Shown here: positions 1 through 55,103 of the stretch, piece after piece | How positions within the stretch are numbered: position 1 is the first letter of the stretch | How the letters are laid out: each line of letters opens with the position of its first letter | Source: Sphingobacteriales bacterium | GTDB lineage: Bacteria > Bacteroidota > Bacteroidia > Chitinophagales > CAIOSU01 | Length of the DNA: 64,000 bases | Assembly: GCA_027486795.1 (NCBI GenBank) | Contig: JAIXOI010000057.1 | Coordinates: 26,896 to 90,895 of the forward strand | Reading direction: 5' to 3' | Translations under genes and position numbers: made by a program | Notes under the pieces: model-generated | Told to the model about the DNA's origin: nothing | The model's database searches: none | Seen by the model: the letters and a program-made list of their open reading frames with translations, nothing else

Positions 1-458
1 TGGCGCTTTTGCGGCAGGCCGCCTACATAGTACTCAAAGTTATGGATGCGCATTTCTTGATGGTGATGCCCCACCAGCAGGTTGGGCAAACCAGGTGCCA
101 CCCCGCAATCAACTATGGCGGTTACGCCATTTTCTTGGGCTAGTTTGTTTAGCTCAAAAGGATCTTCCTCAAAAAAAGAAATATCCACCAAATTAATACC
201 CGCCTCAATAACTGCTTTTGCCATGGCAAACCCCAAAAAGCCAGGCACTGCGCCTACCACCAAATCAAAACCTTGAATGGCTTTTTTTATGTGGTCGGGC
301 TTGCTTAGGTCGGCAACTACGGTGTTAATACCGCGCTCAGCTAATGGCAGCAAAGCCTTTGTGCTTATATCGGCACTGGTTACGGTGTGCTGTTTCGCCA
401 AATCGAGCGCCATGGCGCTACCCACCATTCCTGCGCCAAGTACTATTATGTTTGCCAT
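1..458 (-). CDS. Saccharopine dehydrogenase-like NAD(P)-binding protein (N-terminal part; rest lies outside the window)
   Basis: Reverse translation from the ATG at 458 reads MANIIVLGAGMVGSAMALDLAK (Rossmann GxGxxG) ...GAVPGFLGFAMAKAVIEAGINLVDISFFEEDP...VDCGVAPG, typical of the Sacchrp_dh_NADP family. It is absent from the ORF track because it runs off the window edge. Confidence 0.65.
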   Translation of the reverse strand, partial: MANIIVLGAGMVGSAMALDLAKQHTVTSADISTKALLPLAERGINTVVADLSKPDHIKKAIQGFDLVVGAVPGFLGFAMAKAVIEAGINLVDISFFEEDPFELNKLAQENGVTAIVDCGVAPGLPNLLVGHHHQEMRIHNFEYYVGGLPQKR

Positions 459-533
459 ACGGCTAAAATAGCAAACCCACCTTTGATAACCTATTTAGTG
501 CCTTACTGATATTTTGTAAGTAAGCATTTCTTT

Positions 534-557
534 ACCTATTTGGATGCGCTTGCAACG
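534..557. repeat. Left copy of a bipartite direct repeat, ACCTATTTGG-N6-TTGCAACG, flanking the MmeI-like gene
   Basis: ACCTATTTGG at 534-543 and TTGCAACG at 550-557. The same two words recur in the same order at 3594-3603 and 3616-3623. A partial extra copy, AACCTATTT, lies at 488-496. Confidence 0.7.
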
Positions 558-635
558 CCACCACAAGAGTTGAATAAGTATGATCGCGCTTTGGAAAATT
601 CACCTCTGCGCTACAATTGGTAAAGGACCCAATGA

Positions 636-3515
636 TTAGGTTATTTGGGTCTTTTTTTCCTTTTTTGGTTTCTCTTTAGTAAACAAGTTAGCGGTATATT
701 TTTCATATAGTTCAAACAAAAAAACCATTCGGTTGGCATCACTAGTAAATGCCTGTGCTCTGTATGCCAAGTCCACAGCCTTATCCAATTCGTTATGTGC
801 TTTTACCAAAGTTGGTGGCATGGTCGTTGGGTCATATAGGTCGGCCAAAGAGCTATTAGGAAACTGCGTCCTTACATCTAATACTTTGTGCGCAGCAGCT
901 TCAATTGCTTTTATTTGTTTTTCGCTTGGGTTTTCGGGCCAAGGGAAGTTGTTGTACACAATATCTTTTGAATAGCGAAAATCACTTTTTAGCCGTCCAC
1001 AAACAGTTTTTACCCATGCCATGTGCAAGCTAGACATTAGCACCCCGAAGTGATACAATTTTCCGTTTGGCATTATTAAATTACCATTAGTTGAAATGGT
1101 ATTTTTATCTATGAAGCCCATTGGAATAAATTTTCTTCTTTCCGAGGAAACTACTGGGATAACTAAGCATCGTTCAGGATTATTTGTTTCTCTAAAAAGA
1201 GTAGGCGGAAGGTTTTGCATACCTTTATCGGTGCTATTTAATCTGTCAATTCTGACACGATTAACTCGTTCCATTACTAAAGGCATTTTTCTTAACTCAT
1301 TTGGTGGACAATCAACCAACCAAAGACAGTGTCGCTTTCTGTTATTGATAAATTCATCAGCACCAATTAATAGTTTTATCCATTTTTCTGCATTTGGCTC
1401 CTTGGATAACAAAAGCGCTAAGTCTTCTTCCTCCACGATTAAGCCTTCACTCTTCGCGTAATAATTTCCCTTTATGATTTCTGGAGCACTACAGATTGGC
1501 TTTTTCTTTTTTTCAACCAACAAATCTTTCGCATCAATCAAATAAGCATTGATATTCTTTGCCTTAATTTCATGGGCCTCGCCTTTAATATCCTCATAAT
1601 CAAAAATAAACTTGTTCATTGTATCATTGTTTGCGAAGCCAACTATGATACAATAAACCGCAGCATTTCCTTTGGCTTCATTATTCCATTTAAAAGTACG
1701 ATGGGCAAAATGAATTTTAATGCCGTATTTGTTTTGTAAAACACCCCAAAGTAAATGAGTCTGTTCACCTTGTACAATAGAATTTGTAGAGACGAATGCA
1801 ACTCTAATTTGGGTACCTTGTATATATTTGGCAGCCTTAATGTACCAACCTGTAACATAGTCGAGCGTGCCTCCACCTCCTACATTTCCATATAGTTTTC
1901 CAATTTGGTCACGTTGATATTGTTTCATTATATTGGACCCAATGAACGGTGGGTTGCCTATTATAAAGTCAAATTTCGTTTCATTTAATGGTTCCGGTTT
2001 ACCTTTATGTACTGAAAAAGATTCTACCTGAACATTTACTTTCCCATACTCTTGAGCAGGTTCGTTGACTATATAAACATTGGCATGCTTTGCTACAACG
2101 TCAATAGTATTAACTGGGTTTAGCAACGTTTGCCACTCAATTTCTAAAGCATCGCCATGCACTATAGTTGCGGCTTTTTTGAGTGGTAACCTTACAAAAT
2201 ATTGCCCAAATTCATTGCTAATTTGCATATTCATTTGGTGGTCAATTAGCCACATAGCTACTTCGGCAATCCGTGCCGGAAACTCTTCATACTCTATGCC
2301 ATAAAACTGATCAACATCCAGCCAAATTATTTCTCTAACGTCAAGAAAACCTTGTCCATCTTTGTTCAGCTTGCGCAATATAGCCAACTCTAGAAGCCTC
2401 AGCTCACGATAAGTTATTATCAGAAAATTGCCACAACCACAAGCAGGGTCAAGAAACTTTAGGGTGCTTAACTTTTTATGAAATTCGGGAAGTTTGTTTT
2501 TGTTGTCTTTTATACTTTCAAATTCTTTCCAGAGATCGTCCAAAAAAAGTGGTTTGATGAGCTTCAAGATATTGGTTTCGCTGGTGTAGTGCGCTCCTAA
2601 GTTTCTGCGCTCTTTGGGGTTCATTACGCTTTGAAACATTGACCCAAAAATTGCTGGTGATATCTTACTCCAGTCAATATAGCAACAATCAAGCAAGGCT
2701 TGACGCATCTTTGTGTCAAAGCTTGCCGTTGGCAGGTTTTCTTGAAAAAGCTTTCCGTTTACATAAGGAAAGTCGGCAAGTTGTTCGTCAAGATTTTTAA
2801 ACCGATTTTCTTGTGGCGTGTTTAACACTTGAAAGAGTTCTTGCAATTTTGATGCAAGGTCGCTACCGTCAATATTGGTTCGTTGTTCAATATATTCTTG
2901 AAACTGTTGCTTGTTGAAAATTGTAGTGTCTTCAGCAAACAAACAGAACAAAATACGAACCAAGTAAACTTCTAAAGGGTGTCCAGTATATCCAATTTCT
3001 TCGAGCCTATCGTGTAATTTACCCATTAACTCAGCCGCCCGGATGTTTGCTGGGTCCTGCTCTTTGTAAACTTTTTTCTGGTAGCCAATTAAGTAACCGA
3101 AATGCTGAACATTATTTACAAGGTCTTTAATTTTAAATTCAACTGTCTTTGATTCTTCCTGGTCATACAATCGGAAGTTTTCAAAGTCAGAAACAAGTAT
3201 GTATTTCGGAAGTTCGTGTTCTTTTAAACCGTGCAAATATTCTTTGGCTTGCTCAAAAGCCTTATCCAGGTTTTTGCCCTTGCTTTTCATCTCAACCAAA
3301 ATCATACCCTTCCACAGCAGGTCAATGTATCCATCTTTTTCACCTAGTTTCTTTACCCTATGCTCAAATGTTGAAACCCTTTTGCTAGTGATATCAAAAA
3401 CTTTGAAAAACTCAACCAAAAACGGTTTGGCGTCAGCCTCTTCATTTGAAGTATCTGCCCATTCATTGGAGAAATTTAATGCTCTACTTTTTATCTCGTT
3501 CCAACTTAAAACCAT
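636..3515 (-). CDS. MmeI-family type IIG/IIL restriction-modification enzyme (fused endonuclease, N6-adenine methyltransferase and target recognition domain)
   Basis: 959 aa. The N-terminus, MVLSWNEIKSRALNFSNEW...AKPFLVEFFKVF, is near-collinear with MmeI as I recall it. It has the PD-(D/E)xK-like D...EMK motif (IDLLWKGMILVEMKSKGK), SAM motif I (FLDPACGCGNFL), catalytic motif IV (NPPF) and a long C-terminal TRD. Confidence 0.9.
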   Translation of the reverse strand: MVLSWNEIKSRALNFSNEWADTSNEEADAKPFLVEFFKVFDITSKRVSTFEHRVKKLGEKDGYIDLLWKGMILVEMKSKGKNLDKAFEQAKEYLHGLKEHELPKYILVSDFENFRLYDQEESKTVEFKIKDLVNNVQHFGYLIGYQKKVYKEQDPANIRAAELMGKLHDRLEEIGYTGHPLEVYLVRILFCLFAEDTTIFNKQQFQEYIEQRTNIDGSDLASKLQELFQVLNTPQENRFKNLDEQLADFPYVNGKLFQENLPTASFDTKMRQALLDCCYIDWSKISPAIFGSMFQSVMNPKERRNLGAHYTSETNILKLIKPLFLDDLWKEFESIKDNKNKLPEFHKKLSTLKFLDPACGCGNFLIITYRELRLLELAILRKLNKDGQGFLDVREIIWLDVDQFYGIEYEEFPARIAEVAMWLIDHQMNMQISNEFGQYFVRLPLKKAATIVHGDALEIEWQTLLNPVNTIDVVAKHANVYIVNEPAQEYGKVNVQVESFSVHKGKPEPLNETKFDFIIGNPPFIGSNIMKQYQRDQIGKLYGNVGGGGTLDYVTGWYIKAAKYIQGTQIRVAFVSTNSIVQGEQTHLLWGVLQNKYGIKIHFAHRTFKWNNEAKGNAAVYCIIVGFANNDTMNKFIFDYEDIKGEAHEIKAKNINAYLIDAKDLLVEKKKKPICSAPEIIKGNYYAKSEGLIVEEEDLALLLSKEPNAEKWIKLLIGADEFINNRKRHCLWLVDCPPNELRKMPLVMERVNRVRIDRLNSTDKGMQNLPPTLFRETNNPERCLVIPVVSSERRKFIPMGFIDKNTISTNGNLIMPNGKLYHFGVLMSSLHMAWVKTVCGRLKSDFRYSKDIVYNNFPWPENPSEKQIKAIEAAAHKVLDVRTQFPNSSLADLYDPTTMPPTLVKAHNELDKAVDLAYRAQAFTSDANRMVFLFELYEKYTANLFTKEKPKKEKKTQIT

Positions 3516-3593
3516 GCTGATTTTTTAACTGTTTTTTATAATTGAATATTGCAAATGCTGATTGCTAGGGATTGCAACTGTAACTAAATTTTA

Positions 3594-3623
3594 ACCTATT
3601 TGGTTAGGTTTTTTATTGCAACG
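3594..3623. repeat. Right copy of the bipartite direct repeat, ACCTATTTGG-N12-TTGCAACG
   Basis: Exact 10-mer and 8-mer matches to 534-543 and 550-557, in the same order and orientation. Confidence 0.7.
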
Positions 3624-3817
3624 AAGAGATTTAAACTACTTCGAACCACCAAGCTACAAAAACTGTTGCAAAACATCATACTCATATACTACCAATGCCG
3701 AATGTTTAGTCGTGTGCAATAACTAATGTTCATTAAAGCAAAAGACTAGGAATGTAGGCAAAGTCATACTAGCAGAATATTCCACCCATCATACGCAAAT
3801 TAAAAGAGCATTTAAAG

Positions 3818-3825
3818 TAGCTTTG
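3818..3825 (+). promoter_or_regulatory. Candidate Bacteroidota -7 promoter box (TAGCTTTG = TAnnTTTG), 4 nt before the ATG at 3830
   Basis: Exact match to the TAnnTTTG consensus. No clear -33 TTTG at the proper spacing. Confidence 0.4.
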
Positions 3826-3829
3826 CACC

Positions 3830-4141
3830 ATGTCTCCAAACCGATTGCGAAATATAATGATTGGCATTACCTTGGCATCGGTGGTGGTGATGGTAGTGGC
3901 ATCGTATGTACTGAAGGATACGCCGCGCCAAGGCGGGTTTGTAAAAACTACCCCAAGTGGCCTAAGCCAACAAAACAAAAAGGAATACTACCCTACAGGC
4001 GAGCTGCGTGCCGAGGGCATGATGGATGGTTACTATAAAGAGGGCGAATGGATATATTATCGCAAAGATGGTAGCGTTGAGTTGGTAGAATATTACCACC
4101 AAGGCAATGTGGTTGATAGCAGCGCATTGGAAAGAAAATGA
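3830..4141 (+). CDS. Small membrane-anchored MORN-variant repeat protein
   Basis: One N-terminal TM segment (IMIGITLASVVVMVVASYVL), then YYPTGELRAEGMMDGYYKEGEWIYYRKDGSVELVEYYHQG, a MORN-variant/YwqK-like repeat pattern. Confidence 0.55.
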   Translation: MSPNRLRNIMIGITLASVVVMVVASYVLKDTPRQGGFVKTTPSGLSQQNKKEYYPTGELRAEGMMDGYYKEGEWIYYRKDGSVELVEYYHQGNVVDSSALERK

Positions 4142-5297
4142 GCGCTTTGATATTTATCACCTGTTTTCTCTCGACCACAGCACGTACTTTTGTGTTGTAT
4201 GGGTGGTACATCGCAAAATAAACATCGTGAACAATCTCCAGCAAAAGTCTAATTCTCAACAATCAGCAGTCGGTATATGGTTGCTCATAGGCGTGTTTAT
4301 GCTATTGATGCAGATTGTTATTGGCGGTGTAACGCGCCTTACGGGCTCGGGTTTAAGTATTACCAAATGGGAAATTGTGACAGGCACTATACCACCAATA
4401 GGTGAGGCGGAGTGGCAAGAGGCATTTGATTTGTACAAAGCATCGCCGCAATATGCCAAAATAAACCAAGGCATGGAGATGGGCGATTTTAAGTTCATCT
4501 TCTTTTGGGAGTATTTCCATCGTCTTTGGGCACGCTTAATGGGGTTTGTGTTCCTGTTTCCGTTTATCTATTTTTTAGCAAAGGGCTATTTGCGCAATAA
4601 GCTAGCCTTGCACCTTATAGGGGTAGTAGCATTGGCTATGGTGGTGGCATCGTTTGGCTGGATAATGGTAGCCAGCGGGTTGGTTAGCCGTCCTTATGTA
4701 AACGCTTATAAGCTCACGCTGCACCTTATGTTGGGCATTAGTTTGTTTGCTTACGTGTTTTGGTTGGCTATCAACTACCTGTGGCCTCGCGATGGGATAG
4801 CCAAACTGCAAGGTTTGAAAGGATGGAGCACAGGGGTAATTGCGGTGGCCGTTATACAACTGATATTGGGTGGCCTCATGAGCGGCATGAAGGCTGGTTT
4901 GTTCTTCCCTACTTGGCCTGATATGAATGGTGCTATGCTTCCCGATGTGCTGCAAGATGGCAGTCAGTGGCATTTAGATGCTTTTAAGCATTATGATACC
5001 AATGCCTTTGCCCCTGCCATAGTTCAGTTTGCGCACCGTGGCGTGGCGTATATACTTACGGCGTTGGTGCTAGTATTTACAGTAAGAGCATTCAAACAGC
5101 AGCCAGTTGGGCCAGCCAAGCTTGGTTTTACCCTGTTGCCAGTTTTATTGCTGGTGCAGGTTACGCTGGGTATTGTCACGGTTTTCAATAGCATTGGCAC
5201 TATACCTGTAAGCTGGGGAGTGCTGCACCAAGCGGGCGGGGTGTTACTGCTGGCCAATTTAATTTTTGTTAGGCACTTCTGTTTATCCAAGGCTTAA
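4107..5297 (+). CDS. ctaA: Heme A synthase (COX15/CtaA family)
   Basis: Polytopic membrane protein with GGVTRLTGSGLSITKWE near the N-terminus and conserved His residues (FHRLWA, HLMLG, FAHRGVAY, VLHQAGG). The start is uncertain. The ORF overlaps the previous gene by 35 nt, and the in-frame GTG at 4203 is an alternative start. Confidence 0.8.
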   Translation: MWLIAAHWKENERFDIYHLFSLDHSTYFCVVWVVHRKINIVNNLQQKSNSQQSAVGIWLLIGVFMLLMQIVIGGVTRLTGSGLSITKWEIVTGTIPPIGEAEWQEAFDLYKASPQYAKINQGMEMGDFKFIFFWEYFHRLWARLMGFVFLFPFIYFLAKGYLRNKLALHLIGVVALAMVVASFGWIMVASGLVSRPYVNAYKLTLHLMLGISLFAYVFWLAINYLWPRDGIAKLQGLKGWSTGVIAVAVIQLILGGLMSGMKAGLFFPTWPDMNGAMLPDVLQDGSQWHLDAFKHYDTNAFAPAIVQFAHRGVAYILTALVLVFTVRAFKQQPVGPAKLGFTLLPVLLLVQVTLGIVTVFNSIGTIPVSWGVLHQAGGVLLLANLIFVRHFCLSKA

Positions 5298-5456
5298 AGC
5301 TTTTGGTAGTCATTGTTATCATATTATTTCCTGCTCTTTGCAACGTCTGGTTATTTGTACCAATCTATTGCCCAAACAGTTTATTTACATCGCGTTTACA
5401 TAGCGGTAATATCTATTTGTGTAATTTAGTGGTTCCTCAAACCCCCTTGGTATATA

Positions 5457-6809
5457 ATGAGATTGCTCATAGTTGCGTTCGCCATTCTGGTTAGCCAGAA
5501 CATTCTATTTGCCGGAGCCGGAAACCGCAAATTAATTTCGGGCCCTATGCAGGGCCACACTACTGCCACCTATACCAATATGTGGATTTTGGTTCAAGAT
5601 GCAGGCATGGCTTCGGTTACGCTTATTGACACTTTAACTGGCGCGCGCTACACTACTATGCTCAAAACAGAGGGCAATGCAGTATATGAAGATTATTTTG
5701 CACTCTTGTTTGAGTTTAACGATTTGCCAACCAACCATGTGTACAGGGCCGAGATAACCGTTGACAGTGAACATTACGAAATTGACCGTATTTACCATAC
5801 CGCTAAGACCAATGTAACCGATACCTATCGTTTTATGGTTACCTCATGTGCACTTACCGTGCCTGTTGGTCTGCGTTGGTTGCACCCAGGAATTGAGGAT
5901 AGAACGTACAAACATGTGGTAAAAACCGAAGCCGATTTTAATCTTTGGATTGGGGATTATTTATATTATTTCCCAAAACACTACAAATCGCCCGAAAATA
6001 TGGCTGCGCATTGGGTATGGAAACGGAAAAGGAGGCTTATCGCCAAATTTACCGAAAGCATGCCCCAATATAGTATTTGGGACGACCATGAGTACGGATG
6101 GAACGATGCCGACGCCAGTTTCATTTTCAAAGAGCAATCGCTCAATTTATTCACTAAATACTGGGCAAATCCGGCCTACGGCACTCCTGAGACACCGGGT
6201 TGTTTCTTTAAGTTCGATTATCTCGATTCAGAGTTTTTTATGCTCGACGACCGATATTATCGCACCCAACCCAGTGATAGCATCCCTACAGTTTTAGGTA
6301 CTGGGCAAATGGCTTGGTTTAAACAGAATCTCAAACAATCAAAGGCCGTATTCAAATTCATTAGCATAGGCAGCCAAGTATTCAATCAACTTTCAGAGCA
6401 TGAATGTTATTGGCAATTCAAAGACGAATTGGGCGATATTATCAAATTCATTAAGGACGAGAATATAAGCGGAGTTATCTTCCTAACCGGAGATAGGCAT
6501 CATAGTGAGGTATTGAAACTGGACGTGGAGGGCAGTTACCCATTGTATGAGTTTACCAGCTCGGGCATTACCAGTTTCCGACGTCGCACCCGCAGAACTG
6601 CTGAAAGTGAAAATCCAAATCGCATTCCGGGTACTTTGGCCGATTACCAAAATTATGGCCGCGTAACTATTGAGGGCGAAACGGGCAACCGTGTTTGTTT
6701 AATGGAGATCTTCGATAACCGTGGCAAGCAGGTTTGGGAGTACCGCATTAATCAAAACGAACTTACTGCCAAACCTAGTAATGGAAATGTGCCAGTGAAG
6801 GTGGAGTAG
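5457..6809 (+). CDS. PhoD-like alkaline phosphatase / metallophosphatase
   Basis: Signal peptide, then WDDHEYGWNDAD and FLTGDRHHSE metallophosphatase motifs in a PhoD-like arrangement. Confidence 0.7.
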   Translation: MRLLIVAFAILVSQNILFAGAGNRKLISGPMQGHTTATYTNMWILVQDAGMASVTLIDTLTGARYTTMLKTEGNAVYEDYFALLFEFNDLPTNHVYRAEITVDSEHYEIDRIYHTAKTNVTDTYRFMVTSCALTVPVGLRWLHPGIEDRTYKHVVKTEADFNLWIGDYLYYFPKHYKSPENMAAHWVWKRKRRLIAKFTESMPQYSIWDDHEYGWNDADASFIFKEQSLNLFTKYWANPAYGTPETPGCFFKFDYLDSEFFMLDDRYYRTQPSDSIPTVLGTGQMAWFKQNLKQSKAVFKFISIGSQVFNQLSEHECYWQFKDELGDIIKFIKDENISGVIFLTGDRHHSEVLKLDVEGSYPLYEFTSSGITSFRRRTRRTAESENPNRIPGTLADYQNYGRVTIEGETGNRVCLMEIFDNRGKQVWEYRINQNELTAKPSNGNVPVKVE

Positions 6810-6911
6810 TCTACTTCAGTTAAATTAAGTTAACCCAAAATATCTTCATATTAGTTTATGGAATAGTTGCCGTTGTAGCATCATACACACAAACAACTAA
6901 ACTATTAGCTT

Positions 6912-7823
6912 ATGAAAACCATCTGGCTCTTAACTCTTACCACCATTTTGTTTATCGGTTGCCATTCCGCCTCAGAATCTTCAGATGCTGAAAGTTACAG
7001 TTACGCTTCCACTGAGGCTGACTTAGTATCCAAAGAAAAGTCTGCACCTGAACCAGCGGCATCTCCATCTGTCAAGGTAACCACGAACGGGTTTACTGAT
7101 GCTAACCTAAGTGGTTCGTTTGCAGTTAACCAGCCTTCTACTCCAACCATTAAAACGCCCGACAAAATCATTAAAACGGGCTACATTGAAATGGAGGTAG
7201 ACAATTATGCCAAAACCCTTTCCGATTTAGCCCAAAGGGTACAAGCCGCCCAAGGGTATATTAGTAGCCAAAATGAGCAGCGCGACAACTACCGCATTAC
7301 CAATACCTTGAGCATCAGGGTAGTGAACCAAAACTTCGATGCCCTAATCAATGGACTTGGTGAAATAGCAAAAAAAGTAGTGAGTAAAAGTGTGAACATG
7401 CAGGATGTAAGTGAAGAATATACTGATGTAGCCGCTCGTTTAAAAACCAAAAAGGAAGTAGCAGCGCGCTATAGCGACATTCTGAAATCAGCCAAAACCA
7501 TAAAGGATATTTTAGCGGTCGAGGAGCAATTGCGTGTCATCCGCGAAGAGATTGAATCTTCGGAAGGGCGATTGAAGTACCTAAACGACCAAGTATCGTA
7601 CAGCACTATTACGTTGCAAATATATGAGGAGCTTGAGTACCATGAGCCTGCCGCCCTGCAAGCTAATTTTGGCCAAAAGCTGCTATCGGCAGTTACCGGT
7701 GGCTGGAACGGTTTGCTTGGTTTTACTATTGGGTTGGTAACCATATGGCCTATGCTAATAGTAATAGTGATATCGGTTGTGCTTTTAGTTCGCAGGGTAA
7801 GGCGCAGAAGGGCAGTGGCCTAA
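6912..7823 (+). CDS. DUF4349-like lipoprotein with a C-terminal TM anchor
   Basis: Lipobox (LFIGC), a central coiled-coil region, and the C-terminal TM plus basic tail (WPMLIVIVISVVLLVRRVRRRR) characteristic of DUF4349 proteins. Confidence 0.55.
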   Translation: MKTIWLLTLTTILFIGCHSASESSDAESYSYASTEADLVSKEKSAPEPAASPSVKVTTNGFTDANLSGSFAVNQPSTPTIKTPDKIIKTGYIEMEVDNYAKTLSDLAQRVQAAQGYISSQNEQRDNYRITNTLSIRVVNQNFDALINGLGEIAKKVVSKSVNMQDVSEEYTDVAARLKTKKEVAARYSDILKSAKTIKDILAVEEQLRVIREEIESSEGRLKYLNDQVSYSTITLQIYEELEYHEPAALQANFGQKLLSAVTGGWNGLLGFTIGLVTIWPMLIVIVISVVLLVRRVRRRRAVA

Positions 7824-9428: not shown

Positions 9429-9454
9429 GGTTCCGAGTTGCGGGTTACATTTTA

Positions 9455-9520
9455 GCCCCTTTAGGGGCGTAAAGTTGGTAACTATTGAAACAACAAATAG
9501 TCCATAATCCCTTTAGGGAT
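9455..9520. repeat. Two REP-like hairpins upstream of the RAYT gene (GCCCC-TTTA-GGGGC and ATCCC-TTTA-GGGAT)
   Basis: Hairpins at 9455-9468 and 9507-9520 share a CCC-TTTA-GGG core. Confidence 0.7.
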
Positions 9521-9565
9521 GATACATACACAACACTTATAAGTGCACTTAAACCAAAATTGCAC

Positions 9566-10027
9566 ATGGCAAATACCTACACTCAAATCCATTTGCAGAT
9601 TGTCTTCGCGGTTAAATACCGAGGTGCTATAATTGACAAGACCTGGAAAGAAAATTTGTACCGTTATATAACTAGAATTGTTCAGGCCAATAACCATAAG
9701 CTTTTGGCTATAAATGGAATGCCTGACCATATTCATTTATTTGTAGGAATGCGACCAACTCAATCCGTTTCTGATCTATTGCAAGATATAAAAGGTAGCT
9801 CCTCAAAATGGATTAACGATAACAAACTGGTAAAAGGTAAGTTTGAATGGCAAGAGGGCTATGGAGCTTTTTCTTACGCAATATCACAAATTGATGATGT
9901 CATTAAGTACATAAACAACCAAGAAGAGCATCATAAAAACAGGTCTTTTCGGGAGGAGTATTTAGCATTTCTGCAGAAATTCAAGGTAGATTATAATGAG
10001 CTGTATATTTTTAAGGATTTGGTTTGA
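9566..10027 (+). CDS. REP-associated tyrosine transposase-like protein (IS200/IS605 Y1_Tnp family)
   Basis: MANTYTQIHLQIVFAVKYR..., HUH motif (PDHIHLFVGM), and a C-terminal Tyr region (WQEGYGAFSY...YINNQEEHH). The start was moved to the ATG at 9566 because the upstream part of the tracked ORF covers the hairpins. Confidence 0.8.
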   Translation: MANTYTQIHLQIVFAVKYRGAIIDKTWKENLYRYITRIVQANNHKLLAINGMPDHIHLFVGMRPTQSVSDLLQDIKGSSSKWINDNKLVKGKFEWQEGYGAFSYAISQIDDVIKYINNQEEHHKNRSFREEYLAFLQKFKVDYNELYIFKDLV

Positions 10028-10077
10028 TTTTAATGCATATCACATCCAGTTATGGTTATGCCCGCAATAAGTGTGTG

Positions 10078-10142
10078 CCGCCCCTACAGGGCGGTGTGTT
10101 ATGGTCATTGACTTTTCTACCAACATTTCGTCCCTGTGGGAC
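10078..10142. repeat. Two REP-like hairpins downstream of the RAYT gene (CCGCCC-CTACA-GGGCGG and GTCCC-TGT-GGGAC)
   Basis: Hairpins at 10078-10094 and 10130-10142, of the same CCC-loop-GGG type as the upstream pair. Confidence 0.7.
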
Positions 10143-10157
10143 TTTTGCATGTTATTT

Positions 10158-10235
10158 CCAACTCGGAATTCGCAACCAGTAACCCGCAACTACATTTTTT
10201 CGAACTCGCAACCCGTAACTCGCAACTCGTAACTA
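10158..10235 (+). repeat. Heptamer-periodic array, G[CT]AACNC family (two blocks of 5 units)
   Basis: CCAACTC GGAATTC GCAACCA GTAACCC GCAACTA (10158-10192), then CGAACTC GCAACCC GTAACTC GCAACTC GTAACTA (10201-10235), ending 10 nt before the prfA ATG. Confidence 0.85.
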
Positions 10236-51371: not shown

Positions 51372-52385
51372 TTATTTCAAAAACCTTGTGCCATCAAGGT
51401 TTAGCCACTGCAGTGCGGCACCGCTTAGTAAAGTTAGTTTAGTATCATTGGGGTAAGGCATGGAGTGGATTAAATGCCCTGGCTGCAGCTCACCCAGCGG
51501 AAAAGGATAGTCGGTGCCTAAGCATACTTTATCGGCACCAATCAGGTTAACGATATAGTCGAGCATAGCAGGGTCGTGCACGAGGCTATCCAGCCAAAAC
51601 TTGCCTAAGTATTCTCGCGGGTTTATGGGATTATCAACGGCTACCAAATCGGGTCTAACGTTGAAGCCGTGCTCAATGCGGCCAATAGTTGCTGGGAACG
51701 AACCACCGCCATGCGCAAATGCCACCCGTAGGTTTGGCAAGCGCTCAAATATGCCCCCAAATATCATAGAGCAAATGGCCAGCGAGGTTTCGGCAGGCAT
51801 ACCCACGAGCCACGGCAACCAATATTTATCCATTTTACCTTTGCCCATCATATCCCAAGGGTGCACAAATATGGCGGCGCCTAAGCGGTTGGCAGCTTCA
51901 AAAAAGGGGAATAGCTCTGGGTCGTTCAGGTTCCAATCGTTAACATGCGAACCGATTTGCACGCCTGCCAAACCCAATTCGCCCATGCAGCGCTCCAGTT
52001 CTTGTATTGCTAATTGTGGGTCTTGCAACGGCACGGTGCCCAATGCAACATATCGGGTAGGGTAGCGGCGCGCCACATCGGCAATATGGTCGTTCAAGAA
52101 ACGGGATACTTCTAGCGCATCCTTGCCTTTTGCCCAATAATTGAATAGCACGGGTATGGTGCTGAGTACCTGCACGTGCACCCCTTGGTGGTCGCATTCG
52201 TGCATGCGCACCTCGGGGTCCCAGCAGTTACTTTCCACCTCCCTGAAAAACTTATCATCTACCATCATCCGCGCACAGCATGCCTTGTGATGGTCAAGGC
52301 TCACAAAGCCCCCATAGCCGAATTTATTAGCCCAATTGGGCATTTTTTCGGGCATAATGTGGGTGTGGATGTCGATGGTAAGCAT
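51372..52385 (-). CDS. 2-amino-3-carboxymuconate-6-semialdehyde decarboxylase (ACMSD, amidohydrolase_2 family)
   Basis: From MLTIDIHTHIMPEKMPNWANKFGYGGFVSLDHH through WLPWLVGMPAETSLAICSMIFGG, FAHGGGSFP and GTDYPFPLGE, it is collinear with animal ACMSD as I recall it. The start was trimmed to 52385. Confidence 0.82.
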   Translation of the reverse strand: MLTIDIHTHIMPEKMPNWANKFGYGGFVSLDHHKACCARMMVDDKFFREVESNCWDPEVRMHECDHQGVHVQVLSTIPVLFNYWAKGKDALEVSRFLNDHIADVARRYPTRYVALGTVPLQDPQLAIQELERCMGELGLAGVQIGSHVNDWNLNDPELFPFFEAANRLGAAIFVHPWDMMGKGKMDKYWLPWLVGMPAETSLAICSMIFGGIFERLPNLRVAFAHGGGSFPATIGRIEHGFNVRPDLVAVDNPINPREYLGKFWLDSLVHDPAMLDYIVNLIGADKVCLGTDYPFPLGELQPGHLIHSMPYPNDTKLTLLSGAALQWLNLDGTRFLK

Positions 52386-52425
52386 GGGCAAGTTGTTTAC
52401 ATAATGCTTTGCTAAGATAGCAAAC

Positions 52426-53031
52426 TCAACCTGAGCAAGCAGCATAAACCACCAGCCTGATACCAAAACCTATCATTACCACCCCGATGATGCGGTAAGC
52501 TACTGTTAAGTTTTGGGGCTGGATAAAGGCTTTGATGCGGTGCGCTAAAAGCACTTTGAGGCTATCGAGGGTGAAAATGCCCAGTAGGCAGCCAAGCAAG
52601 TATTGGTACATGCCACCACTATAGCCATATTTGTGGCCTGCATAACCTATTACGGTGAGCCATACTCCAAACACAAACGGGTTAACGAAGTTGACCAAAA
52701 AGCCGCTCACAAATGCGCCCGTTAAGCCACCAGCGCTGGGCTTAGCCTCGGTGTTGTACGAGGGGCTTACGATATACCTGCCGCCAATAGCAAACAGAAT
52801 GGTAGCTCCCACAATGCTCACGTAGGTTGTGTTCTCTACCTTTTGCAAAAAGGCTACCGTGCCCGCAACGCATAGTGCCACTGCAACTATATCGCTAACT
52901 ATAATGCCCAAGGCTACCATAAGGCCAGCGGTGCGGCCCTTTTGTAGGGTGTTTTGCAGTAATGTGAAAAACACCGGCCCCACAAAAACAATCATGGCCA
53001 AACCCCATAAATAGCCTTCTAAAAACGCCAT
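52426..53031 (-). CDS. LysE/RhtB-family amino acid exporter
   Basis: 201 aa with 5-6 TM segments and an N-terminus LWGLAMIVFVGPVFFTLLQNTLQKGR typical of the LysE family. Confidence 0.7.
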   Translation of the reverse strand: MAFLEGYLWGLAMIVFVGPVFFTLLQNTLQKGRTAGLMVALGIIVSDIVAVALCVAGTVAFLQKVENTTYVSIVGATILFAIGGRYIVSPSYNTEAKPSAGGLTGAFVSGFLVNFVNPFVFGVWLTVIGYAGHKYGYSGGMYQYLLGCLLGIFTLDSLKVLLAHRIKAFIQPQNLTVAYRIIGVVMIGFGIRLVVYAACSG

Positions 53032-53050
53032 GGGTGCAAAATAGAAATAT

Positions 53051-54112
53051 TCAATGAGTTATGGTAAATATGGCGGTAGCGGGGCGTTGAGTAGCCATGC
53101 CCGCTATTGTTTCTTTGTTGATTAGTTTTTGGGCATTGGGCTGTGCAAACACTTCCTGCATATTGCGTATGGCTCCTGCTGGCACTTGGGCTTCAAGTAA
53201 CGCAGCTAGAAGCTCGTCTCGTTGCCAAGTGGAGGCTGCTAGCTGTAGCTGGTTCAATAAACTTTCGCGGTTGGTTACCCGTTTGCTATTGGTACTATAC
53301 TTTTCATCGGTAGGCAAAATAGATAGCTTGAGCACGTTGCACAGGTTCTCGAATTGCGCATGGTTGCCCACCGCTAACACAATCTGCCCGCAATCGGCAC
53401 AAGTAAGGGTTTCGCCATAAGGGGCAATGTTGGGGTGCAAGCTGCCAAGGCGCTGCGGTATATGCCCAGCCATAAGCCAGTTGGTGGCTTGGTTGGCTAA
53501 AGATGCTATGGCCGCATCGTATAACGATACGGACACCATGGCTCCCAACCCCGTGCGCTCGCGTTGCAGCAGTGCCAGCAATATGCCTTCTTTTAGTTGA
53601 TGCGCCGCCATCAAATCAATCACTGCCACGGGCCATTTTATGGGTCCGCTTTCGGGTGTGCCGTTCATGTACATTAGCCCAGCTTCGGCTTGCAGCACTA
53701 CATCAAATGCTGTGCGGCTATCGTTTGGTCCAAAGCCAGTGATGTTGGCATATATGAGTTTCGGGTTGAGGGCTTTTAATGTTTCATAATCCAGTCCCAG
53801 TTTAACATCATCGGTGGCCTTAAAGTTAGTGAGCACTATATCGGCATTGGCTATTAGGTCTAGCACCGCTTTTTTGCCTGCTGTGGTTTTCAGGTCGATG
53901 GATTGGTACTCTTTACCATAATTAACCGAACTAAAATAGGCCGAAACCTCGCTTTGGGCATCTTCGGTGGGTAGTTTCCACTGGCGGGTTACGTCGCCGC
54001 CATCGGGGTTTTCAATCTTGATAACCTTGGCACCCAATTCAGCTAAAAACATACCCACGGCTGGCCCCGCCAATACGCTTGCTAGTTCTATTACGGTTAG
54101 GTGCTTGAGCAT
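53051..54112 (-). CDS. Family III CoA-transferase (CaiB/BaiF family)
   Basis: LTVIELASVLAGPAVGMFLAELGAKVIKIENPDGGDVTRQW, ITGFG...; 353 aa. Confidence 0.85.
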   Translation of the reverse strand: MLKHLTVIELASVLAGPAVGMFLAELGAKVIKIENPDGGDVTRQWKLPTEDAQSEVSAYFSSVNYGKEYQSIDLKTTAGKKAVLDLIANADIVLTNFKATDDVKLGLDYETLKALNPKLIYANITGFGPNDSRTAFDVVLQAEAGLMYMNGTPESGPIKWPVAVIDLMAAHQLKEGILLALLQRERTGLGAMVSVSLYDAAIASLANQATNWLMAGHIPQRLGSLHPNIAPYGETLTCADCGQIVLAVGNHAQFENLCNVLKLSILPTDEKYSTNSKRVTNRESLLNQLQLAASTWQRDELLAALLEAQVPAGAIRNMQEVFAQPNAQKLINKETIAGMATQRPATAIFTITH

Positions 54113-54125
54113 GGAGGGGTTTACA

Positions 54126-54146
54126 GGTTGAGGGTTACGAGTTGCG
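54126..54146. repeat. Heptamer array GGTTGAG GGTTACG AGTTGCG (inverted G[CT]AACNC family)
   Basis: GTTACGAGTTGCG (54134-54146) is the exact reverse complement of 10221-10233. The array lies 14 nt upstream of the CoA-transferase ATG and is followed by TTTTCAAATTT (54149-54159), an octamer-family word. Confidence 0.8.
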
Positions 54147-54218
54147 TGTTTTCAAATTTAAAGATTCATAACGAATACTAGTCACTATTCACTAACAACT
54201 ACTTACTTTGTAACAATC

Positions 54219-55103
54219 ATGATAATAACCCGCATAGCACCCACGCCCAGTGGTTACCTGCACCAAGGTAATGCCTTTAACTTTTTGCTCAACTGGCTAT
54301 TGGCCCGTTCGCAGGGAGGTAAGGTGCTATTGCGCATCGATGATTTGGATGCGCCACGTGCGAAACCCGAATTCATTAATGATGTGTTTGAGACATTAGA
54401 TTGGTTGGGTATCTATTGGGATATGGGGCCAACCGGGCCAGATGATTTGGCGGCTGCCTGGAGCCAAAGCCATCGCTTGCCTTTGTACCATGAATTGCTA
54501 GATATCTTAAAAGAACATGACCATCTGTTTGCTTGCGAATGCTCACGGAAGGATTTGGCCGATAGTAGTGGGGTATATCCTGGAACTTGCTTGCACAAAG
54601 GCATTGCCATGGATACGACCGATGTTGCTTGGCGTGTTAAGGTTGAAGCGGATGCCTTCATGCATTTTACGGATGGTTGGCAAGGAGCCATACAATACGC
54701 ATTAGGGCAGGAGATGGGCAGCTTTGTGGTGCGCCGCCGAGACGGAATACCTGCTTACCAAATAGCCTCATTGGCCGATGATGTGCATTTTGGCGTTAAC
54801 TCAATTGCCCGTGGCATGGATTTATTGCCATCAACGGCGGCGCAGCTATATTTGGCCAAGTTGTTGGGCAATAGCTCATTTGTTAAAACCCAGTTTTATC
54901 ACCACCCATTGGTATTGGACAATGCAGGGCAAAAGCTCTCCAAATCAGCAGGAAGTGTATCGCTCAACCATTGGCGCAGCGAGGGCTTACCCGCAAGTGT
55001 TTTGCTGGACAATTTTTGTAAGTGGGCAGGTATTGAGGTTGATGGGGAAGTGCAAAGTGCAAGAGAACTATTGTCTATCACACCTAAATCTTGGAAGTTC
55101 TAA
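54219..55103 (+). CDS. gluQ: tRNA glutamyl-Q(34) synthetase (GluQRS)
   Basis: IITRIAPTPSGYLHQGNAFNF (HIGH-like), a KLSKS motif, and a truncated GluRS catalytic domain of 294 aa. Confidence 0.82.
   Translation: MIITRIAPTPSGYLHQGNAFNFLLNWLLARSQGGKVLLRIDDLDAPRAKPEFINDVFETLDWLGIYWDMGPTGPDDLAAAWSQSHRLPLYHELLDILKEHDHLFACECSRKDLADSSGVYPGTCLHKGIAMDTTDVAWRVKVEADAFMHFTDGWQGAIQYALGQEMGSFVVRRRDGIPAYQIASLADDVHFGVNSIARGMDLLPSTAAQLYLAKLLGNSSFVKTQFYHHPLVLDNAGQKLSKSAGSVSLNHWRSEGLPASVLLDNFCKWAGIEVDGEVQSARELLSITPKSWKF

What the first reader, a model, noticed from the sequence alone, without database searches (positions are those of the whole stretch)
488..3623. Low-GC ~3.1 kb insert carrying a solitary MmeI-family enzyme, bracketed by a bipartite direct repeat
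ACCTATTTGG (534-543 and 3594-3603) followed by TTGCAACG (550-557 and 3616-3623) occurs on both sides of the gene, in the same order and orientation. A third partial copy, AACCTATTT, lies at 488-496. My hand counts of single 60-nt lines inside the gene give about 27-38% G+C, against about 48-57% in the flanking genes; these are spot counts, not a full calculation. The segment contains no integrase or transposase. This pattern fits a horizontally acquired single-gene defence cassette that inserted at, or recombined through, a site of roughly 25 nt.
Basis: partly seen in the sequence, partly recalled or inferred. Interest (0 to 1): 0.55.

Follow-up and report, generated by a model that had tools for sequence, protein, structure and literature searches.

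The report
Recently inserted solitary MmeI-type restriction gene
A single foreign gene for a combined restriction-and-methylation enzyme was recently spliced into the short promoter region between two housekeeping genes.

Summary
The low G+C is real but smaller than estimated: the gene is 37.4% against 44.3% for the window and 46-49% for the neighbouring genes. It is still the strongest outlier in the 64 kb.

ORF 636-3515 (-) is an intact, full-length MmeI-family Type IIL/IIG enzyme. Six relatives (about 97%, 94% and 73-80% nucleotide identity) lack the gene. They carry a conserved 67-nt spacer between the saccharopine-dehydrogenase-like gene and the 103-aa/ctaA genes.

Alignment sets the true insert at 471-3817, with the right edge uncertain up to 3820. 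That is 3347 nt replacing 43 ancestral nt. There is no target duplication, no terminal repeat, no recombinase and no tRNA.

They are absent from every empty site and from the flanks of the nearest homologues. They are barely above chance (4-10% of shuffles).

So horizontal acquisition is supported, and insertion or recombination through a ~25-nt site is refuted. The most likely route is illegitimate or microhomology recombination of incoming DNA. Both junctions abut the core promoter boxes of the flanking genes. This is a known phenomenon and a new family member, of low interest.

The parts
471..3817 (.). Inserted foreign block of 3347 nt. The right edge is uncertain between 3817/3818 and 3820/3821. 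It replaces 43 ancestral nt (L001 5765-5807).
   Evidence: blastn: window 1-470 matches L001 5295-5764 and window 3818-7022 matches L001 5808-9012. The same breakpoints appear with L002, L094, L095, L097 and L098. G+C is about -3.5 sd for the gene-sized window and the tetranucleotide distance of 471-3817 is +3.8 sd.
636..3515 (-). Intact 959-aa MmeI-family Type IIL/IIG restriction-modification enzyme: nuclease, helical spacer, N6-adenine methyltransferase, TRD and C-terminal domain.
   Evidence: All five Pfam MmeI domains match, E 1e-26 to 7e-89. PADLOC REase_MTase_IIG scores 1189 bits. Against MmeI structure 5HR4 the match is E=0, 1092 bits, with the D...EMK, DPACGCGNF and GNPPF motifs conserved.
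3516..3817 (-). Imported non-coding DNA upstream of the enzyme gene (302 nt, about 33% G+C). It holds repeat copy B and a cluster of four TTGCAA palindromes (3549, 3572, 3616, 3666).
   Evidence: No ORF with a family match and no Rfam hit.
471..635 (-). Imported non-coding DNA downstream of the enzyme gene (165 nt). It now forms the upstream region of the saccharopine-dehydrogenase-like gene and holds repeat copy A and the partial copy.
   Evidence: A pseudo-ORF on the + strand has no Pfam match and no homologue.
534..557 (+). Repeat copy A: ACCTATTTGG-N6-TTGCAACG. The gapped similarity extends over about 515-557. It starts 63 nt inside the left junction. On the minus strand its proximal end is 76 nt upstream of the ATG at 458.
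   Evidence: (family D5).
3594..3623 (+). Repeat copy B: ACCTATTTGG-N12-TTGCAACG. It ends 194 nt inside the right junction. On the minus strand its proximal end is 79 nt upstream of the enzyme's ATG at 3515.
488..496 (+). Third partial copy, AACCTATTT.
463..470 (-). TATTTTAG, a -7-type core promoter box variant (Bacteroidota consensus TAnnTTTG). It lies 4 nt upstream of the left gene's ATG and is retained host DNA directly abutting the left junction.
   Evidence: Sequence. That it acts as a promoter box is inferred from the published consensus, which I recall from memory.
3818..3825 (+). TAGCTTTG, a perfect TAnnTTTG box 4 nt upstream of the ATG at 3830, directly abutting the right junction. 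Base 3820 is G in all insert-bearing contigs and C in all empty sites.
   Evidence: The same box-N4-ATG geometry occurs at two other genes in the window.
625..652 (.). Weak hairpin (GGACCCAA...TTGGGTCC) spanning the enzyme's stop codon (636-638). A possible terminator, with a T-run on the + strand.
   Evidence: z about -1.4, not significant.
1..458 (-). 5' part of the saccharopine-dehydrogenase-like gene (host, cut by the window edge).
   Evidence: Pfam Sacchrp_dh_NADP, E 3.6e-17. The full 371-aa gene is present in L081.
3830..5297 (+). Host genes: a 103-aa protein (3830-4141, with only a sub-threshold MORN_2 match) overlapping ctaA/COX15 (4107-5297).

Best explanation
Window 471-3817 (right edge possibly up to 3820) is foreign, lower-G+C DNA carrying one gene, an intact MmeI-family Type IIL restriction-modification enzyme. 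In a very recent ancestor of this strain it replaced 43 bp of the 67-bp divergent promoter spacer between the saccharopine-dehydrogenase-like gene and the 103-aa/ctaA genes.

Shown:
- The insert is the derived state.
- Its exact limits.
- It has no target duplication, terminal repeats, recombinase, tRNA or structured ends.
- The enzyme is intact.

Inferred:
- A linear piece of DNA from a low-G+C Bacteroidota donor entered by transformation, conjugation or transduction.
- It was joined by illegitimate or microhomology-mediated recombination. Both junctions lie at the outer edges of the two -7-type promoter boxes, each 4 nt upstream of its ATG, and the right box carries a single junction-linked base change. 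This fits either a crossover within the box or survival only of events that spared both core promoters.
- The insert then persisted because a self-contained restriction-modification gene gives phage defence and resists loss.

By family analogy, the single polypeptide methylates one adenine on one strand of an asymmetric 6-7-bp site. It cuts unmodified DNA about 20/18 nt away. The TRD residues K843/D845/R847/G811 predict a site ending in purine-A-G.

The ACCTATTTGG/TTGCAACG repeat is an internal feature of the imported flanks. It is most likely chance or a donor regulatory remnant, and it is not the recombination site.
For: Empty sites. L001 (92.6-94.4% nt identity), L094 (95.7-97.0%), L095, L097 and L098 (~94%) and L002 (73-80%) all have the two genes 67 nt apart. 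They share a conserved 43-nt core that is absent from the window.

Insert-bearing contigs. L081-L083, L092, L093 and L096 are 99.6% or more identical (L083 checked at protein level only) and come from several independent assemblies.

Breakpoints. 470/471 and 3817/3818 are the same against every empty site. Base 3820 is G in all insert-bearing contigs and C in all empty sites.

No mobile-element marks. No terminal direct or inverted repeats beyond chance. No stable end hairpins. No tRNA or Rfam RNA. No other gene in the block.

Composition. GC 0.374 against 0.443, GC3 0.354 against 0.45-0.52, tetranucleotide z +3.8. The nearest homologues (at most 84% aa) are in genomes of 33-37% G+C, in unrelated neighbourhoods, with similarity confined to the coding region.

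Enzyme. All five MmeI domains match, and the match to 5HR4 is E=0 with catalytic motifs kept.

Specificity. The rule for positions 4 and 6 comes from PMC2731914, applied to the alignment.

Precedent. Restriction-modification indels without long target duplication are the commonest class in within-species comparisons: 149 of 158 indels (PMC2853133).
Against: - The joining mechanism is inferred only. No donor copy at 90% identity or more was found, so the donor-side junction sequences are unknown.
- That both junctions sit next to promoter boxes could reflect selection on outcomes or coincidence. The left box (TATTTTAG) is an imperfect match to the consensus. Exact TAnnTTTG boxes are found upstream of only a few genes in the window.
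- Enzyme activity, methylation pattern and recognition site are untested.
- The repeat is not strictly at chance level (p about 0.04-0.1). Its two copies lie at similar distances (76 and 79 nt) upstream of same-strand start codons, so a function is not excluded.
Confidence: 0.8

Rival explanations
1. The cassette integrated at, or recombined through, a ~25-nt site (ACCTATTTGG...TTGCAACG) that now flanks it as a direct repeat, as an att site or long target duplication would.
For: The two words occur in the same order and orientation on both sides of the gene. The 10-mer is unique to these two places in the 64 kb.
Against: All six empty sites lack both words. The repeats lie 63 and 194 nt inside the imported DNA. 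The spacers differ (6 against 12 nt). The similarity is reached by 4-10% of shuffles. TTGCAACG is a common word in this window. There is no recombinase.
Confidence: 0.03
2. The repeat marks an older mobile unit (about 534-3623) that was delimited in the donor. The present insert is that unit plus some donor flanking DNA, moved here by a second, illegitimate event.
For: Both copies are inside the imported DNA, as this model requires. The similarity is marginally non-random. Furuta et al. report restriction-modification genes flanked by direct repeats more often than expected.
Against: The nearest homologues (76-79% nt over the coding region) have unrelated flanks without these words. No donor copy was found. 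The statistical support is weak.
Confidence: 0.08
3. The repeated element (minus strand: CGTTGCAA-N6/12-CCAAATAGGT) is a functional upstream promoter or operator element. One copy serves the enzyme gene. The other now supplies upstream promoter sequence to the saccharopine-dehydrogenase-like gene, whose own upstream DNA was replaced.
For: Both copies lie on the coding strand of a downstream gene, at nearly the same distance from its ATG: 79 nt from 3515 and 76 nt from 458. TTGCAA palindromes are strongly clustered upstream of the enzyme gene: 4 in 123 nt against 0.1 expected. The insertion removed everything upstream of the left gene's -7 box.
Against: The distance match was noticed after the fact. 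There is no match to sigma-70-type or TAnnTTTG promoter patterns at the repeat. The motif is not conserved upstream of homologues. With only two copies, covariation or conservation cannot be assessed.
Confidence: 0.12
4. The gene is ancestral at this locus and was deleted in the relatives.
For: None beyond the presence/absence pattern itself.
Against: Empty sites at three divergence levels share the same conserved 43-nt sequence. It is absent from the window and could not be regenerated by independent deletions. The block is the strongest compositional outlier in the window. Only a clade of 99.6% or higher identity carries it.
Confidence: 0.02
5. An assembly or binning chimera has joined unrelated DNA.
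For: The source is metagenome-derived.
Against: Identical junctions and gene were recovered in several independent assemblies: Logan SRR16126904, SRR16126905, SRR30952542 and SRR16126882, and NCBI GCA_027488445.1.
Confidence: 0.01

Closest known systems
MmeI (Methylophilus methylotrophus), prototype of the Type IIL / MmeI family of single-chain restriction-modification enzymes (PDB 5HR4)
   Same: Same five-domain order and full-length alignment (E=0, 1092 bits). The nuclease D...E-x-K, the SAM-binding DPACGCGNF and the catalytic GNPPF motifs are conserved. It is solitary, with no separate methyltransferase gene.
   Different: About 45 extra residues (467-511) just before the NPPF motif. The TRD has K/D where MmeI has E806/R808, G for A774 and V for E751. 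The predicted site therefore differs from TCCRAC and ends in purine-A-G. Activity was not tested.
Restriction-modification gene indels and substitutions between conspecific genomes (Furuta, Abe and Kobayashi 2010, NAR, PMC2853133)
   Same: A restriction-modification gene present in one strain and absent from close relatives, with conserved flanks and no linked mobility gene. This falls in their class F, 'others', the commonest indel class.
   Different: It is not their 'insertion with long target duplication', because no target sequence is duplicated. Instead 43 nt of target were lost.
Integrase- or transposase-borne genomic islands, and IS200/IS605-type elements (a Y1 transposase gene lies 6 kb away)
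   Same: A compositionally foreign block with clean empty sites.
   Different: No recombinase in the block, no att or target duplication, no terminal inverted repeats, no subterminal hairpins and no tRNA target.

Membership tests
MmeI family (Type IIL/IIG restriction-modification enzymes) | Single polypeptide with the N-terminal nuclease, helical spacer, methyltransferase, TRD and C-terminal domains in that order | tested here: met
   Pfam MmeI_N 11-173, MmeI_hel 179-257, MmeI_Mtase 333-638, MmeI_TRD 662-861 and MmeI_C 865-945, all far above cut-off. PADLOC REase_MTase_IIG scores 1189 bits.
MmeI family (Type IIL/IIG restriction-modification enzymes) | PD-(D/E)xK-type nuclease motif (MmeI D70...E80-x-K82) | tested here: met
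   In the alignment to 5HR4, query GYIDLLWKGMILVEMKSKGK aligns with MmeI GFVDLFWPGILLIEMKSRGK.
MmeI family (Type IIL/IIG restriction-modification enzymes) | Gamma-class N6-adenine methyltransferase motifs I (DPACGxGxF) and IV (NPPF) | tested here: met
   FLDPACGCGNFL and IGNPPFIG are conserved.
MmeI family (Type IIL/IIG restriction-modification enzymes) | No separate cognate methyltransferase; the gene stands alone | tested here: met
   It is the only gene in the 3347-nt insert, and the neighbours are housekeeping genes.
MmeI family (Type IIL/IIG restriction-modification enzymes) | Methylation of one strand only, and cleavage about 20/18 nt from an asymmetric site | not testable with these tools
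   Needs a methylome or enzyme assay. Only a partial site (…R-A-G) is predicted from TRD residues.
   Six empty sites lack ACCTATTTGG and TTGCAACG.
   The junctions are at 470/471 and 3817/3818. The repeats are at 534-557 and 3594-3623.
   None in the block. The nearest is a Y1 transposase gene at 9566-10027, 5.7 kb away.
Horizontally acquired genomic islet | Empty-site relatives with conserved flanks, and foreign composition | tested here: met
   for the empty sites. for composition.
Restriction-modification insertion with long target duplication (Furuta 2010) | Direct repeats of tens to hundreds of bp, derived from a single copy in the target | tested here: not met
   No duplication. Instead 43 nt of target were deleted.

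The most novel reading that the evidence does not exclude
The -7 core promoter boxes (TAnnTTTG, 4 nt upstream of the ATG) of leaderless Bacteroidota genes might serve as generic microhomology docking points. Whole gene-plus-intergenic cassettes could then be swapped into divergent promoter regions between distant Bacteroidota without any recombinase. In that reading the imported flanks, including the CGTTGCAA-N6/12-CCAAATAGGT element and the TTGCAA array, act as portable upstream promoter or operator DNA. That DNA would now control both the enzyme gene and the neighbouring host gene.
Probability: 0.1. Interest if true: 0.45.

Novelty: new member of a known kind. Interest (0 to 1): 0.2.

Why it matters
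It is a clean, datable example of a solitary restriction-modification gene entering a genome with no mobile-element machinery. The insert-bearing clade is 99.6% or more identical, and the nearest empty-site relative is about 97% identical. The junctions are resolved to the base, and 43 bp of a divergent promoter were lost.

Such cases help show how defence genes spread and how promoter regions tolerate insertion. The phenomenon and the enzyme family are both well described.

The enzyme itself probably has a recognition site different from MmeI, predicted to end in R-A-G. That is of minor practical interest for enzyme discovery.

Tried and rejected
1. Repeat as target duplication or att site. 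Rejected by the empty sites.
2. Terminal direct or inverted repeats of the true insert. Scores are at shuffle level.
3. Subterminal hairpins of IS200/IS605 type, prompted by the Y1 transposase 6 kb away. Fold z-scores are near 0.
4. The ancestral 43-mer relocated inside the insert or elsewhere in the window. Not found.
5. The left imported flank as the 3' remnant of a donor gene (a + strand pseudo-ORF ending at 623). No Pfam match and no homologue.
6. Donor search. The nearest proteins are only 84% identical, with unrelated flanks. Exact-pattern scans of metagenome contigs with both imported flanks found nothing. There are only distant coding-region matches on plasmids and phages.
7. A non-coding RNA or tRNA at the locus. 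None.
8. Repeat words as the enzyme's own recognition site. TTGCAAC ends in C, but the TRD has the K/D pair that specifies G at position 6. AAATAG has T at position 4, but the Arg that specifies a purine is retained. Judged unlikely.
9. A tract of raised divergence in the host flanks next to the insert, which would indicate import by homologous recombination from a diverged relative that already carried it. No clear tract.
10. The same locus as a hotspot with other cargo. L003 and L004 have different synteny with housekeeping genes, so they are uninformative.
11. Sigma-70-type promoter and terminator scans. Counts are at shuffle level.
Full report
**Observation**

ACCTATTTGG is at 534-543 and 3594-3603, and TTGCAACG is at 550-557 and 3616-3623. 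AACCTATTT is at 488-496 and again at 3593-3601. The spacers between the two words differ, 6 nt against 12 nt.

The 10-mer occurs only at these two places in the 64 kb. Shuffles expect 0.24 copies, and 4 of 100 shuffles reach two. TTGCAACG occurs 8 times against 4.06 expected, so it is a common word here.

I aligned the two non-coding flanks of the gene (471-635 and 3516-3817) against each other. The best gapped local alignment has 49 columns and a score of 16. That score is reached by 4.4% of dinucleotide-preserving shuffles in direct orientation and by 7.5% in either orientation. A shared exact word of at least 10 nt appears in 9.5% of shuffles. The repeat is real but only marginally beyond chance.

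| Region | G+C |
|---|---|
| Enzyme gene, 636-3515 | 0.374 |
| Left gene | 0.487-0.491 |
| 103-aa gene and ctaA | 0.462 |
| Whole window | 0.443 |

Gene-sized windows have a standard deviation of 0.020, and this is the lowest in the 64 kb, about -3.5 sd. GC3 is 0.354 against 0.45-0.52 in the neighbours. The tetranucleotide distance of 471-3817 from the window average is +3.8 sd, the largest in the window.

**What the gene is**

ORF 636-3515 (-) encodes 959 aa. It matches all five Pfam MmeI domains in order: N-terminal nuclease, helical spacer, methyltransferase, TRD and C-terminal domain (E 7e-89 to 1e-26). It also matches the PADLOC Type IIG model at 1189 bits.

Against solved structures it hits MmeI itself (5HR4) at E=0 and 1092 bits over essentially the full length. 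The nuclease D...E-M-K, the DPACGCGNF and the GNPPF motifs are all conserved. There is one extra segment of about 45 residues (467-511) just before the NPPF motif.

I applied the residue-to-base rules that Morgan and Luyten established by mutagenesis (PMC2731914) to that alignment. The enzyme has K843 and D845 where MmeI has E806 and R808, which specifies G rather than C at position 6. It keeps the Arg at the R810 position and has Gly at the A774 position, which points to a purine at position 4. It has Val at the E751 position, so position 3 is not predictable. The predicted site therefore ends in purine-A-G. This is an inference, not a measurement.

No other real gene lies in the block.

**Empty sites and true boundaries**

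A scan of one genome per species with ctaA, plus an exact-sequence look-up of the 103-aa protein, recovered relatives of three kinds.

| Loci | Nucleotide identity to window | State |
|---|---|---|
| L081, L082, L083, L092, L093, L096 | 99.6% or more (L083: protein level only) | Carry the insert |
| L094 | 95.7-97.0% | Empty |
| L001, L095, L097, L098 | about 93-95% | Empty |
| L002 | 73-80% | Empty |

In every empty locus the saccharopine-dehydrogenase-like gene and the 103-aa gene are divergent and only 67 nt apart. blastn gives window 1-470 = L001 5295-5764 and window 3818-7022 = L001 5808-9012. The same breakpoints appear against every other empty site.

So 3347 nt (471-3817) stand where the relatives have 43 nt (ATGTTTTCTGTTGGGTAGTGGTTAATACCACAGCATCTCTTGT). 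That 43-mer is conserved even in the 78%-identity relative, and it is not found anywhere in the insert or the window. The empty state is therefore ancestral and the window carries a derived insertion-with-deletion.

Base 3820 is G in all insert-bearing contigs and C in all empty sites. The right junction may therefore lie up to three bases further right.

The same junctions occur in several independent assemblies, so this is not an assembly chimera.

It does not. None of the empty sites contains either word.

Both repeat copies lie inside the imported DNA. Copy A starts 63 nt from the left junction, and copy B ends 194 nt from the right junction. They are not a target duplication or an attachment site for this event.

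**How it got in**

The true insert has none of the usual marks of a mobile element:
- no terminal direct or inverted repeats above shuffle level;
- no stable hairpins at its ends;
- no recombinase gene;
- no tRNA or other known RNA nearby.

No plasmid or phage record carries anything closer than about 60-72% identity over parts of the coding region.

The nearest protein homologues are only 84% identical. They sit in unrelated neighbourhoods of genomes with 33-37% G+C, and some are inside defence clusters. Nucleotide similarity to them stops at the ends of the coding region. Exact-pattern scans of metagenome contigs with either imported flank found nothing. The donor is therefore unsampled, but it was probably a low-G+C member of the Bacteroidota.

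Both junctions fall exactly at the outer edge of an 8-nt box that lies 4 nt upstream of a start codon:
- On the right is TAGCTTTG, then CACC, then ATG. This is a perfect match to the Bacteroidota -7 consensus TAnnTTTG, which I cite from memory of the literature.
- On the left, read on the minus strand, is TATTTTAG, then CCGT, then ATG. This is one base off the consensus.

Two other genes in the window show the same box-N4-ATG geometry. The 43 nt that were lost are precisely the DNA between the two boxes.

I infer one of two things. The join may have used these short boxes as microhomology; the junction-linked G/C difference inside the right box fits a crossover there. Or only events that spared both core promoters survived. 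These two cannot be separated without the donor sequence.

The host flanks next to the insert show no clear tract of raised divergence. There is thus no sign that the insert arrived with homologous flanks from a diverged relative.

**What the repeat might be**

Read on the minus strand, which is the coding strand of both the enzyme gene and the left host gene, each copy is CGTTGCAA-N6/12-CCAAATAGGT. The copies lie 79 and 76 nt upstream of an ATG (3515 and 458).

TTGCAA palindromes are strikingly clustered upstream of the enzyme gene. Four fall in 3549-3671 against 0.1 expected, the densest cluster in the 64 kb. The TTGCAACG half of copy B is one member of that cluster.

These facts allow a regulatory reading. 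However, the distance match was noticed after the fact. The words are not conserved upstream of homologues, and no promoter-pattern match falls on them.

The words are also unlikely to be the enzyme's own site. TTGCAAC ends in C, and AAATAG has T at position 4, and both contradict the TRD residues.

I rate chance or a donor-specific remnant as most likely, a regulatory element at about 0.12, and an older mobile-unit boundary at about 0.08.

**Comparison with what is known**

The enzyme meets every sequence-testable criterion of the MmeI family. Its biochemical hallmarks (single-strand methylation, cleavage at 20/18) cannot be tested here.

The event belongs to the class that Furuta, Abe and Kobayashi catalogued: restriction-modification indels between conspecific genomes with conserved flanks. 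In their data, cases without long target duplication are the majority, 149 of 158 indels (PMC2853133). It is not a long-target-duplication insertion, nor an integrase- or transposase-borne island.

**Verdict**

The general reading, a horizontally acquired single-gene defence cassette, is well supported. The specific mechanism, a ~25-nt site, is refuted.

This is a new member of a known enzyme family, acquired in a known way. It is documented unusually cleanly, and interest is low (0.2).

Noticed in passing
window 3549-3671: Four copies of the palindrome TTGCAA (at 3549, 3572, 3616, 3666) within 123 nt upstream of the enzyme gene. About 0.1 are expected, and this is the densest cluster in the 64 kb. 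Three of the four read ATTGCAA. It may be an operator-like array, but its function is unknown.
   Followed up: partly
window 459-470 and 3818-3832; also 10246 (+) and 51037 (-): A recurring geometry of TAnnTTTG-type box, then 4 nt, then ATG. It suggests leaderless transcripts in this organism. Both insertion junctions abut such boxes.
   Followed up: partly
window 9440-10186 (gene 9566-10027, +): A solitary IS200-like Y1 transposase gene (Pfam Y1_Tnp, E 6e-30) sits in a low-G+C patch (about 0.36). This patch has no continuous counterpart in the syntenic region of L002, so it looks like a second, independent insertion 5.7 kb from the first.
   Followed up: partly
window 636-3515 (-), residues 467-511: An extra segment of about 45 residues relative to MmeI, just before the NPPF motif. 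Close homologues fall into two length classes, about 907-927 aa and about 950-974 aa. I did not check whether this segment accounts for the difference.
   Followed up: no
window 3830-4141 and 4107-5297: The 103-aa gene overlaps ctaA by 35 nt. Its 'MORN' label rests on a sub-threshold MORN_2 match only (E 0.0023, 18.4 bits against a cut-off of 29.6).
   Followed up: partly
window 51500-54500: The second-strongest tetranucleotide outlier in the window (z +2.75), this time with high G+C (0.49). Not examined.
   Followed up: no
L087 7868-12850; L090 4783-9302: The nearest homologues of the enzyme sit next to other defence genes: an EcoRV-like endonuclease, SLFN/AlbA_2 and GmrSD in a Gelidibacter genome, and KilA-N plus McrBC in a metagenome contig. 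In the window, by contrast, the gene is solitary between housekeeping genes.
   Followed up: no
window 471-623 (+): An in-frame pseudo-ORF, broken by one stop, ends at 623 just before the hairpin at 625-652. Both ACCTATTT words would be read as Thr-Tyr-Leu in this frame. No homologue was found, so a gene-remnant origin is unsupported.
   Followed up: yes
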